A stretch of 64,000 bases of DNA from a virus: IMG/VR virus record IMGVR_UViG_3300050343_000218; one strand, 5' to 3'. The notes below the pieces were generated by a model. It ran no database searches. It had not been told where the DNA came from and saw only the letters and a list, made by a program, of their open reading frames with translations. The position numbers and the translations under genes were made by a program. Below are positions 10,669-51,722 of this stretch, in pieces. Each line of letters begins with the position of its first letter. Positions within the stretch are counted from its first letter, which is position 1.

Positions 10669-10740
10669 CTCCTGAGGCAGGATTTGAACCTGCGACCAAA
10701 CGATTAACAGTCGTCCGCTCTGCCACTGAGCTACTCAGGA
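10669..10740 (-). tRNA. trnN: tRNA-Asn (GTT), CCA not encoded
   Basis: Cloverleaf: TCCTGAG/CTCAGGA acceptor, GCTC/GAGC D stem, GACGA-CT GTT AA-TCGTT, GCAGG-TTCAAAT-CCTGC. Confidence 0.95.
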
Positions 10741-30495: not shown

Positions 30496-30569
30496 CGGGA
30501 TTGATGGGACTTGAACCCACGACTTCTTGCGTGACAGGCAAGCGCTCTAACCAGCTGAGCTACAACCCC
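30496..30569 (-). tRNA. trnD: tRNA-Asp (GTC)
   Basis: GGGGTTG/CAATCCC acceptor; CTTGC-CT GTC AC-GCAAG; TTCAAGT T loop. Confidence 0.95.
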
Positions 30570-30573
30570 AAGG

Positions 30574-30655
30574 TGGGCAGGGAGGGATTTGAACCCCCGT
30601 AGGCAGAGCCAGTGGATTTACAGTCCACCTCCATTAACCACTCGGACACCTACCC
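30574..30655 (-). tRNA. trnY: tRNA-Tyr (GTA)
   Basis: GGGTAGG/CCTGCCC acceptor; GTGGA-CT GTA AA-TCCAC; long variable arm. Confidence 0.95.
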
Positions 30656-37461: not shown

Positions 37462-37492
37462 AGGACTAGTATGTTTGAGTATATATTAGCAT

Positions 37493-37517
37493 AAAAAAAG
37501 AGGGGTTGCAACCCCTC
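37493..37517 (-). terminator. Intrinsic terminator of the riboswitch/DUF4278 transcript
   Basis: GAGGGGTT-GC-AACCCCTC followed by T7. Confidence 0.8.
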
Positions 37518-37541
37518 TCAATGTAAGTATTGTCCAAGCAA

Positions 37542-37712
37542 TTACTTGGTGTACGTTTTACCACGATAGCAGAAAGTCCCGTGAGACTCTTTGCTTTCTA
37601 CACAACGGGTATCATACTTAACACCACGATATGAGGTGTGGGTAATCTGTGCGTTGTGAAGTGCAGATGCTTTGTTGATCTGCTTCTTGATCAAGTTGAG
37701 TGAATTCAACAT
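37542..37712 (-). CDS. DUF4278-type small protein (56 aa; family of glutamine synthetase inactivating factor IF17/GifB)
   Basis: Manual translation with two YRG motifs (TSYRGVKY, FCYRGKTY); AGGAG SD at 37720-37724; sits downstream of the riboswitch. Confidence 0.8.
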   Translation of the reverse strand: MLNSLNLIKKQINKASALHNAQITHTSYRGVKYDTRCVESKESHGTFCYRGKTYTK

Positions 37713-37747
37713 TTGGTTACTCCTGAAAGTAGAGGGTTTTTAATCCC

Positions 37748-37977
37748 CGTTCCTTCAGTCGTGTGCGTCCCAATACCATTGGCATTCTGGCGATGAGTCC
37801 TTAAGGGTCTCAACCAACTCAACCTTAAGCTGATTGTTAAGGTTGGTATTGTTCTCAATCTTCAGCATAATAGCATCAGTTTGAGTACAAGTGAGTGTTG
37901 TGTAGAATAGTACTTCTAGCATTAGGATGAACGGCTCCGTTCCGCGACTTACTTGCGTCCCCCTAGGGGGATGAACG
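37748..37977 (-). ncRNA. Tandem glutamine riboswitch-like leader (glnA / Downstream-peptide class)
   Basis: Two units CGTTCA-[P2]-CGCA..-GGAACG; unit 1 at 37938-37977, unit 2 at 37748-37933; upstream of a DUF4278-type gene. Confidence 0.75.
37755..37922 (-). CDS. 55-aa ORF nested in riboswitch unit 2
   Basis: Manual translation MLEVLFYTTLTCTQTDAIMLKIENNTNLNNQLKVELVETLKDSSPECQWYWDAHD*. Confidence 0.7.
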   Translation of the reverse strand: MLEVLFYTTLTCTQTDAIMLKIENNTNLNNQLKVELVETLKDSSPECQWYWDAHD

Positions 37978-37984
37978 TACAGAC

Positions 37985-38014
37985 ATTATACTATGTCCTA
38001 TATTATTTAGTCAA
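37985..38014 (-). promoter_or_regulatory. Sigma70-type promoter TTGACT-N18-TATAAT with an embedded CTAAATA
   Basis: Predicted TSS near 37978, at the first nucleotides of the riboswitch. Confidence 0.75.
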
Positions 38015-42701: not shown

Positions 42702-42796
42702 AGTAAGACCATCAGGGAATGGTGGAGTTACTATTCCTCTACGCCCTAGGCAGAGGTATTAAAGACGTGTTTAGACACCCTATAGGTCTTGGTTTG
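42702..42796 (-). ncRNA. PhotoRC-II-type cis-regulatory RNA in the psbA leader
   Basis: AAGACC...GGTCTT enclosing stem with internal CCTCT..AGAGG and CCAT..ATGG stems, directly 5' of psbA. Confidence 0.75.
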
Positions 42797-42852
42797 AGGA
42801 GTGTTACGAACCGTTAAGAAATGTTTTCTTTCCTTAACCTGTTGACTTATTT

Positions 42853-51649: not shown

Positions 51650-51722
51650 CAGGTCAGGTAGGACTCGAACCTACAATCGGCAACTTAGAAGGTTGATGCA
51701 TTATCCATTATGCTACTGACCC
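51650..51722 (-). tRNA. trnR: tRNA-Arg (TCT)
   Basis: GGGTCAG/CTGACCT acceptor; GCAT/ATGC D stem; CAAC-CT TCT AA-GTTG; GTAGG-TTCGAGT-CCTAC. Confidence 0.93.

What the first reader, a model, noticed from the sequence alone, without database searches (positions are those of the whole stretch)
37748..37933. A complete 55-codon ORF is looped out of a glutamine-riboswitch aptamer, with its start codon paired to its own last codons
Seen in sequence (minus strand): CGUUCA-UCCUAAUGCUA-[ORF body]-UGGUAUUGGGA-CGCACAC-GACU-GAAG-GAACG. CGUUC (37929-37933) and GAACG (37748-37752) can form P1. UCCUAAUGCUA (37917-37927) and UGGUAUUGGGA (37768-37778) can form an 11-bp helix with three G-U pairs in the P2 position. 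That helix contains the AUG, and its partner strand encodes Trp-Tyr-Trp-Asp. The UGA stop lies inside GACUGAAG. Established: glnA and Downstream-peptide riboswitches bind L-glutamine and sit upstream of DUF4278/gifB genes in cyanobacteria. Inference: translation and aptamer folding are mutually exclusive. Ligand-stabilised folding would bury the AUG, while a translating ribosome would unzip the aptamer. This would be a riboswitch-peptide attenuation device coupling glutamine level and ribosome traffic. I do not know of a description of this nested architecture.
Basis: partly seen in the sequence, partly recalled or inferred. Interest (0 to 1): 0.9.

Follow-up and report, generated by a model that had tools for sequence, protein, structure and literature searches.

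The report
Gene inside nested double glutamine riboswitch
In a marine cyanobacterial virus, a real 55-codon gene lies inside a stem-loop of a glutamine-sensing RNA built from two sensor cores folded one inside the other, so folding the sensor and translating that gene must compete on the same RNA.

Summary
The element spans 37977-37747. An outer, canonical glutamine-I aptamer (P1 37977-73 with 37752-48, P2, AGUA/GAA E-loop, P3) carries in its P3 loop a second, circularly permuted core, whose P2 closes round the ORF. Across 320 phage loci the 23-60 long-range pair holds in 317 (outer) and 309 (inner) in the nested register, against 217-220 in the linear one; both P1 helices covary only when nested. 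Only 4-5 bp of the '11-bp' helix are conserved, but the AUG overlaps the stem in nearly all homologues. A covarying helix buries the downstream DUF4278-like gene's Shine-Dalgarno when the aptamer is unfolded, which predicts glutamine-ON for that gene and OFF for the nested one (inferred; no binding or expression data). Gene-free forms, and forms with a gene in the outer loop, also exist. Not found in 400 host-family genomes. The founding glnA alignment holds these RNAs as linear tandems; I found no paper on the nesting. This scan noted the layout before on other phage genomes.

The parts
37985..38014 (-). sigma-70-type promoter, TTGACT-18-TATAAT; predicted start 1-2 nt before the aptamer
   Evidence: 11 of 12 matches; a -10 box lies 7-9 nt before C1 in 186 of 218 homologues with an outer 5' strand
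37973..37977 (-). outer aptamer, P1 5' strand (C1, G2 ... C5)
   Evidence: covaries with 37752-37748 (8 loci CGUUU/AAACG); RNAalifold consensus; Rfam parse of compact homologue L524
37958..37971 (-). outer P2 hairpin (in about 50 homologues its loop holds another complete ORF)
37950..37957 (-). outer junction C21-G22-C23-A24 and E-loop 5' strand AGUA
   Evidence: numbering from the crystallised aptamer (PMC5393176); position 23 covaries with 37747
37945..37949 (-). P3 5' strand (AGUCG), shared by both cores
   Evidence: pairs with 37761-37757; compensatory forms
37929..37943 (-). inner, circularly permuted core: G54', P1' 3' strand GAACG (37942-38), G60' (37937), short linker, P1' 5' strand CGUUC (37933-29); GGAG at 37938-37935 is the likely ribosome-binding site of the nested ORF
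   Evidence: pair probability 0.96-0.98; GAACG/CGUUC or CAACG/CGUUG, never mixed; GGAG in 129 of 129 ORF-bearing GAACG-type loci, 0 of 8 gene-free ones
37917..37927 (-). inner P2' 5' strand; contains the AUG (37922-37920); 11 bp here, 4-5 bp conserved
37755..37922 (-). 55-codon ORF, phrog_504 family, helical hairpin with two conserved Cys, function unassigned
   Evidence: E 1e-24; 315 phage records; dN/dS 0.18-0.21; model pLDDT 78
37761..37778 (-). inner P2' 3' strand (37778-68) and inner junction C21'-G22'-C23'-A24' (37767-64); also codons W-Y-W-D-A-H
   Evidence: synonymous sites locked (e.g. GCA 91 of 91, GAC 87 of 91); inner 23-60 pair kept in 309 of 320
37747..37761 (-). P3 3' strand (37761-57), E-loop 3' strand GAA holding the stop codon, G54, outer P1 3' strand GAACG (37752-48), position 60 (37747)
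   Evidence: stop at this place in 206 of 210 ORFs of 53-66 aa; position 60 = C in 102 of 102 loci with outer G23
37720..37746 (-). expression platform: CCCU (37736-33) and CUUUCAG (37729-23) can pair with the aptamer's 3' strand; Shine-Dalgarno AGGAG 37724-37720
   Evidence: free fold; covariation A:U 68, G:C 79, G:U 58, A:C 0; independent pairs about 9:0, p about 0.004
37542..37712 (-). DUF4278-like (IF17-like) 56-aa gene with two YRG motifs, phrog_545; presumed main output
   Evidence: Pfam DUF4278 E 9e-5, 23.2 bits, under the 25.3 cut-off; phrog_545 E 1e-33
37490..37519 (-). intrinsic terminator closing the two-gene transcript

Best explanation
A phage transcript of about 480 nt starts just before a nested double glutamine aptamer. 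Shown by covariation: the outer core is a canonical glutamine-I three-way junction; its P3 loop is replaced by a second, circularly permuted core that uses the other end of the same P3 helix; that core's P2 closes round the phrog_504 ORF; and when the aptamer is unfolded its 3' strand pairs downstream and buries the start of the DUF4278 gene's Shine-Dalgarno. Inferred from the known class: glutamine plus Mg2+ locks C1-G59, the 23-60 pair and P3, which frees that Shine-Dalgarno (DUF4278-like protein ON when the host is nitrogen-replete, as for gifB). Inferred from anatomy: the same fold ties up the nested gene's GGAG (its first two bases are G59' and G60'), its AUG and its last codons, so the nested gene is damped at high glutamine; at low glutamine it is translated, and a passing ribosome strips P2', P3 and outer P1, resetting both pockets. 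The unit thus works as a reciprocal switch between two small phage proteins, with two coupled pockets probably sharpening the response. Structure about 0.9; glutamine-ON control of the DUF4278 gene about 0.75; glutamine control of the nested gene about 0.55.
For: Nested register: 23-60 pair Watson-Crick in 317/320 (outer) and 309/320 (inner) against 220 and 217 for the linear units; outer G23 predicts C at the far position 60 in 102/102 unselected cases; inner P1' never discordant in IMG/VR (0 and 0, against at least 120 CAACG/CGUUG); 81 loci with inner CGUUG never have CAACG downstream; RNAalifold picks both nested P1 helices unaided; Rfam parses compact L524 as the outer aptamer with a 48-nt insert in L3 at 46.8 bits. 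Coding: dN/dS 0.18-0.21, start and stop fixed on the RNA scaffold over lengths of 53-66 aa. Start burial: at least one AUG base paired in 134/135 and 37/37 distinct stems; P2' switches from UCCCA/UGGGA to UCUAU/AUAGA between groups with the AUG still inside. Platform; in the second group C60 and the Shine-Dalgarno are co-paired in 101/101 free folds, as described for gifB (PMC6212724).
Against: No binding, probing, ribosome or reporter data. Gene-free forms are common (50 of 97 in the second group), so the ORF is dispensable for the RNA. The conserved part of P2' is short (median duplex about -8 kcal/mol) and pair 4 does not covary significantly in independent pairs. P1' is predicted to form without ligand (p 0.98), so the nested gene's ribosome site may be structured in both states. 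GGAG is absent in 54 of 81 CAACG-type loci. The inner core has no AGUA/GAA E-loop and its 23-60 pair is broken in 10 of 102 second-group loci. A ribosome ending at the nested stop would also melt the anti-Shine-Dalgarno helix, which could blur the reciprocal output.
Confidence: 0.6

Rival explanations
1. Passenger gene: the nested double aptamer regulates only the DUF4278-like gene; phrog_504 and its relatives sit in loops that tolerate insertions and borrow the promoter, with no selected glutamine control of their translation.
For: Gene-free, inner-only, outer-only and two-gene forms all occur; a homing endonuclease also sits in the linker loop in Sf-CH5 and S-H68; homologues of the protein occur in plain operons. 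Fixed start and stop could be inherited from one insertion event.
Against: Start codons stay within or next to the stem in both loops and both groups despite different stem sequences; pairing beyond the 5-bp core is better than in permuted controls (-8.84 against -8.16, sd 0.12; relatedness not removed); GGAG appears in the linker only when an ORF is present; ribosomes crossing the aptamer cannot be neutral to its fold.
Confidence: 0.22
2. One working pocket: only the outer core binds glutamine; the inner permuted core is a structural remnant (like the 'ghost' aptamer of singlet glycine riboswitches; own knowledge) that closes P3 and anchors the gene.
For: Inner core lacks the E-loop; its 23-60 pair is less strict (92 of 102 in the second group).
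Against: It keeps C1', G2', G22', G54', C58', G59' (partly fixed by my search patterns, but also in the 80 loci found by protein alone), and its 23-60 pair switches to G-C in two loci (L483, L538). Glutamine-II binds with the same pocket and no three-way E-loop junction (PMC6698751).
Confidence: 0.13
3. Linear tandem, as the first reader and the founding alignment read it: two self-contained aptamers, the second with P1 37933-29 / 37752-48.
For: The strands are identical in this genome, so the pairing is possible; Rfam can parse L483 as two halves above cut-off; it may occur as a folding intermediate.
Against: Breaks P1 pair 5 in 81 loci and the 23-60 pair in about 100 of 320; leaves both units without P3; predicted probability about 0.001 over 212 homologues; -70.0 against -73.4 kcal/mol for the nested fold here.
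Confidence: 0.03
4. Classical leader-peptide attenuation: ribosome speed at glutamine codons sets the RNA fold.
For: A short ORF overlaps regulatory structure upstream of the regulated gene.
Against: Only 3 Gln codons in 55, no run; protein-like purifying selection along the ORF; no terminator between the two genes; switch intact without the ORF.
Confidence: 0.02

Closest known systems
Glutamine-I riboswitch (glnA motif, Rfam RF01739), e.g. Synechocystis gifB leader (PMC6212724); crystal construct in PMC5393176
   Same: Outer core has P1, P2, P3, C21-G22-N23-A24, AGUA/GAA E-loop, G54, a 23-60 long-range pair, a DUF4278-type gene downstream and an inhibitory helix over the ribosome site.
   Different: L3 is not a loop but a second permuted core with a whole gene in its P2; phage-borne; the window scores below the Rfam cut-off.
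Tandem glutamine riboswitches (PMC2864571; 157 doublets in PMC9481103)
   Same: Two glutamine cores on one leader; rows with these very cyanophage motifs stand in the 2010 glnA alignment.
   Different: They are aligned and counted there as separate linear aptamers, with the ORF and 3' half left in unannotated flank; covariation here shows strand-exchanged nesting with one shared P3.
Glutamine-II (Downstream-peptide, RF01704; PMC6698751)
   Same: Same pocket nucleotides, C-G form of the long-range pair, YRG peptide downstream; shows that the pocket works without the glutamine-I junction.
   Different: No pseudoknot helix here; 27.4 bits against 33, with broken pairs.
c-di-AMP (ydaO) riboswitch with two pseudo-symmetric pockets (title cited in PMC5393176)
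   Same: Two related pockets arranged head to head in one fold.
   Different: Unrelated sequence and ligand; no embedded gene.
Structured RNAs that carry ORFs in loops: group I introns with homing endonucleases, tmRNA tag frame (own knowledge)
   Same: Coding sequence looped out of a folded RNA.
   Different: Here start codon, last codons and stop are themselves paired or pocket-forming nucleotides of a metabolite sensor on an mRNA.

Membership tests
Glutamine-I riboswitch (outer core) | P1 with C1-G59 and G2-C58 | tested here: met
   37977-73 / 37752-48; pair 5 covaries in 8 loci
Glutamine-I riboswitch (outer core) | Three-way junction with P2 and P3 | tested here: met
   P2 covaries at 5 pairs; P3 AGUCG/CGACU with compensatory forms
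Glutamine-I riboswitch (outer core) | E-loop AGUA/GAA at the base of P3 | tested here: met
   37953-50 and 37756-54; position 51 is G here, A in about a third of homologues
Glutamine-I riboswitch (outer core) | G22 and long-range 23-60 pair | tested here: met
   C23-G60 here; G23-C60 in 102/102 of the second group; 317/320 overall
Glutamine-I riboswitch (outer core) | Score at Rfam gathering cut-off (35 bits) | tested here: inconclusive
   Window: 28.6 bits for the 5' half only, the long insertion defeats the model; compact homologue L524 scores 46.8 bits in the outer register
Glutamine-I riboswitch (outer core) | Position before a DUF4278 / nitrogen gene with an expression platform | tested here: met
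   DUF4278 E 9e-5 though under the curated cut-off; covarying anti-Shine-Dalgarno helix
Glutamine-I riboswitch (outer core) | Selective L-glutamine binding and regulation | not testable with these tools
   needs probing, calorimetry or reporters
Glutamine-I riboswitch (inner core) | Pocket nucleotides C1, G2, G22, G54, C58, G59 and 23-60 pair | tested here: met
   all present; 309/320 for 23-60
Glutamine-I riboswitch (inner core) | Canonical strand order and E-loop | tested here: not met
   P1' 3' strand comes first (circular permutation); junction reads A-[A/C]-A-C opposite G-C, no AGUA/GAA. Works like a glutamine core; not filed as a canonical member
Glutamine-II riboswitch (RF01704) | Pseudoknot with helix formed 3' of GAACG | tested here: not met
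   27.4 bits against 33, four non-standard pairs in that helix
Linear tandem riboswitch | Each aptamer folds from its own contiguous sequence | tested here: not met
Leader-peptide attenuator | Run of regulatory codons and alternative terminator | tested here: not met
   3 Gln of 55; no terminator between the genes; dN/dS 0.2

The most novel reading that the evidence does not exclude
A two-pocket, pseudo-symmetric riboswitch that contains a natural circularly permuted glutamine aptamer and regulates a gene lying inside itself: glutamine turns the enclosed gene off and the downstream IF17-like gene on, ribosome traffic resets the sensor, and the two P2 loops serve as exchangeable gene slots (up to three genes under one sensor, as Syn9 gp196-gp198).
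Probability: 0.4. Interest if true: 0.88.

Novelty: new variant of a known kind. Interest (0 to 1): 0.76.

Why it matters
It would add two things to riboswitch architecture: a natural circularly permuted, nested second aptamer, and a regulated gene inside the aptamer instead of behind it. It reinterprets part of the 'tandem glutamine riboswitch' count, and shows why Rfam scans miss an element shared by several hundred cyanophage genome records. It gives a concrete, testable way for marine phages to read host nitrogen status (Syn9 gp196-gp198 is a lab-ready case), and a natural scaffold that takes whole genes in its loops.

Tried and rejected
Rfam at gathering cut-off finds nothing here. RNA-library contigs cover the region, but flat and equally over flanking DNA, so they are no evidence of expression. 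Protein function: no Pfam, only unnamed Atlas clusters, generic helical matches with Z under 6 in the PDB, only cyanophage unknowns in BFVD; no function claimed. Inner versus outer ORF homology: same Cys...NL...K..L pattern, but hhalign probability only 8.7% and a different PHROG (6471); left open. The four loci with downstream CAACG are chance matches in coding DNA. One search used a mistyped pattern and a faulty regex; both ignored. One search fetched a wrong paper. Ames and Breaker 2011, Ren 2015 and the Syn9 transcriptome paper are not held, so a mention there is not excluded. P2' pair 4 did not reach significance in independent pairs. The 9/9 independent-pair result for inner P1' includes loci selected for that pair; I rely and the unselected sets instead. 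Longer 78-85-aa gene calls that read through the aptamer were set aside: their starts lie at or before the -10 box.

Full report
SETTING. The window is a T4-like marine cyanophage (psbA, psbD, phoH, thyX, PhotoRC-II, tRNAs). The finding lies on the minus strand in a self-contained unit: promoter TTGACT-18-TATAAT (38014-37985), structured RNA, a 55-codon ORF, a DUF4278-like gene (37712-37542) and a terminator near 37519.

THE OBSERVATION. The letters are as described. The ORF is phrog_504 (E 1e-24), with matches in 315 phage records, essentially all Synechococcus or Prochlorococcus phages. Outside the RNA-bound ends dN/dS is 0.18 (55-aa class) and 0.21 (53-aa class), and third positions vary most. 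Among 210 homologues of 53-66 aa the AUG lies 5 nt after A6' in 205 and the stop at GACU|RA in 206, and the last codons are locked at synonymous sites. So a real gene is fixed at both ends to an RNA scaffold. The 11-bp helix forms in this genome, but only pairs 1-4 (209-210 of 210) and pair 5, the A of AUG (188), are conserved; pairs 6-10 are at 35-42%.

Rfam at relaxed threshold shows a further half-aptamer at 37979-37934 (28.6 bits, cut-off 35). In homologues the order is always CGUUCA, P2, CG[C/G]A, AGUA, AGUC, GCG, GAACG, G, linker, CGUUCA, P2' with the ORF, CGCA, [A/C]AC, GACU, RAAG, GAACG. AGUA-AGUC lies in the first half and GACU-GAAG in the second: together they are the E-loop and P3 of a single canonical glutamine-I aptamer (numbering from PMC5393176). 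What lies between them is a second set of pocket nucleotides whose P1 3' strand comes before its 5' strand, that is, a circular permutation.

TESTS OF THE REGISTER. (1) Inner P1': in sets not selected for it, 137 GAACG/CGUUC and 9 CAACG/CGUUG, none mixed; whole-collection scans for the two mixed forms gave 0 and 0 against at least 120 CAACG/CGUUG. (3) Eight loci have outer CGUUU with downstream AAACG. (4) A scan for outer G23 gave a second group of 102 loci; all have C at the far position 60, which the pattern did not fix, while the inner core keeps C23'-G60' in 90 and switches to G-C in 2. Over 320 loci the 23-60 pair is Watson-Crick in 317 (outer) and 309 (inner) when nested, 220 and 217 when linear. 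(5) P3 shows compensatory forms, including A-U to C-G at its first pair. (6) RNAalifold on 33 gene-free forms picks both nested P1 helices, and Rfam itself parses L524 as the outer aptamer with a 48-nt insert in L3 at 46.8 bits. Counts are of sequences, not events; the tree-based check gives about 24 changes of inner P1' type, with the downstream base never following.

START CODON BURIAL. In the second group P2' is UCUAU/AUAGA instead of UCCCA/UGGGA, encoding I-D instead of W-D, and still holds the AUG (pairs 1-5 in 51, 51, 51, 50, 46 of 51). Allowing bulges, at least one AUG base is paired in 134 of 135 and 37 of 37 distinct stems. GGAG in the linker, whose first two bases are G59' and G60', is present in 129 of 129 ORF-bearing GAACG-type loci and 0 of 8 gene-free ones of the first group, though in only 27 of 81 CAACG-type loci.

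EXPRESSION PLATFORM. In the free fold the aptamer's 3' strand (37758-52 and G59-G62) pairs with 37729-23 and 37736-33, covering the first bases of the AGGAG before the DUF4278-like gene. Position 51 covaries with its partner there: A:U 68, G:C 79, G:U 58, A:C 0; independent pairs go about 9 to 0, p about 0.004. In the second group a different helix pairs C60 and the Shine-Dalgarno in 101 of 101 local folds. This is the arrangement proposed for gifB, an ON switch (PMC6212724; PMC6698751).

MODULARITY AND RANGE. Of 309 complete loci, 212 have a gene only in the inner loop, 39 in both, 11 only in the outer, 47 in neither. Syn9 carries gp196 in the outer loop, gp197 in the inner and gp198 (DUF4278-like) behind; Bellamy is gene-free; Sf-CH5 and S-H68 have a homing endonuclease in the linker. 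Distant phrog_504 homologues without the W-D-A-N-D tail sit in plain operons with no aptamer. Neither the nested pattern nor phrog_504 was found in 400 genomes of the host family, apart from a phage contig carrying gp23; the six hits in genome contigs look like binned phage DNA. The protein models as a helical hairpin (pLDDT 78) with no telling fold match.

MECHANISM. Shown by sequence comparison: nested fold, coding ORF, overlap of its start, tail and stop with aptamer nucleotides, anti-Shine-Dalgarno helix. From the known class: glutamine binding and ON control of the DUF4278-like gene. Inferred: damping of the nested gene when the cores are locked, resetting of the cores by ribosomes, and coupling of two pockets through P3. 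The main rival is that the gene is a passenger in a tolerant loop; a second is that only the outer pocket binds. Linear tandem folding and leader-peptide attenuation are disfavoured.

WHAT IS KNOWN. Glutamine riboswitches in cyanophages are reported as plain Rfam hits (PMC9964418, a 99-nt hit; PMC9004378). Tandem glnA RNAs are known (PMC2864571) and counted as 157 pseudo-cooperative doublets, with no use of 'nested' or 'permuted' (PMC9481103). The founding glnA alignment contains these motifs, each half aligned as its own aptamer and the ORF left in flank. Searches for nested or permuted glutamine aptamers or an ORF inside an aptamer found nothing relevant; three primary papers were not held. 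This scan reached the same nested reading on other phage genomes; I had formed it before that look-up (note), and those notes are not counted as evidence.

VERDICT. Observation partly confirmed, interpretation partly supported. A new variant of the glutamine-I riboswitch: well supported as structure, untested as function. Interest 0.76.

Noticed in passing
L322:540-1112 (Sf-CH5), L323:758-1330 (S-H68), also upstream of the ORF in L067: A 190-aa homing endonuclease gene (phrog_314) is inserted in the linker of the inner P1' hairpin, stretching a 3-nt loop to about 590 nt.
   Followed up: partly
L320:700-900 (Syn9 gp196); L002, L055, L087, L492, L498 and about 45 more: The outer P2 loop holds its own 65-75-aa ORF (phrog_6471 in Syn9), AUG 4-5 nt into the stem, stop at the 3' strand; nearly leaderless from the predicted start.
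   Followed up: partly
L033, L066, L076, L102, L228 and 11 more, outer P2: A conserved 47-nt structured insert with no ORF in the outer P2 loop; unexplained.
   Followed up: no
L076, L231, L242, just 3' of the element: Position 60 is A, the ACUGAAGGAA motif repeats, and a further TATAAAT..CGTTCATCCC unit follows; possibly a duplicated or decaying element.
   Followed up: no
window 38004-38010: CTAAATA overlaps the -35 box, also in Syn9, L408, L409, L414; resembles a T4-type late promoter (own knowledge), so the unit may be read early and late.
   Followed up: no
L314, L317, L318, L319, L315: Cyanophage DNA inside bacterial or archaeal assemblies: a 194-kb contig with gp23 in a Synechococcus MAG, a 188-kb contig with phage-type genes in a Nonlabens isolate, contigs in a Euryarchaeota MAG; likely contamination.
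   Followed up: partly
window 42723-42816; 10669-10740, 30496-30655, 51650-51722: PhotoRC-II RNA before psbA and four tRNA genes; with psbA, psbD, phoH and thyX nearby these mark a T4-like cyanomyovirus.
   Followed up: no
L524:3805-4007: Group I intron downstream of a PhotoRC-II RNA in a related phage.
   Followed up: no
P0061 (528 aa): A predicted protein with ten matches to the C-terminal 16 residues of phrog_504; may be an assembly artefact or a repeat of the aptamer's 3' half.
   Followed up: no
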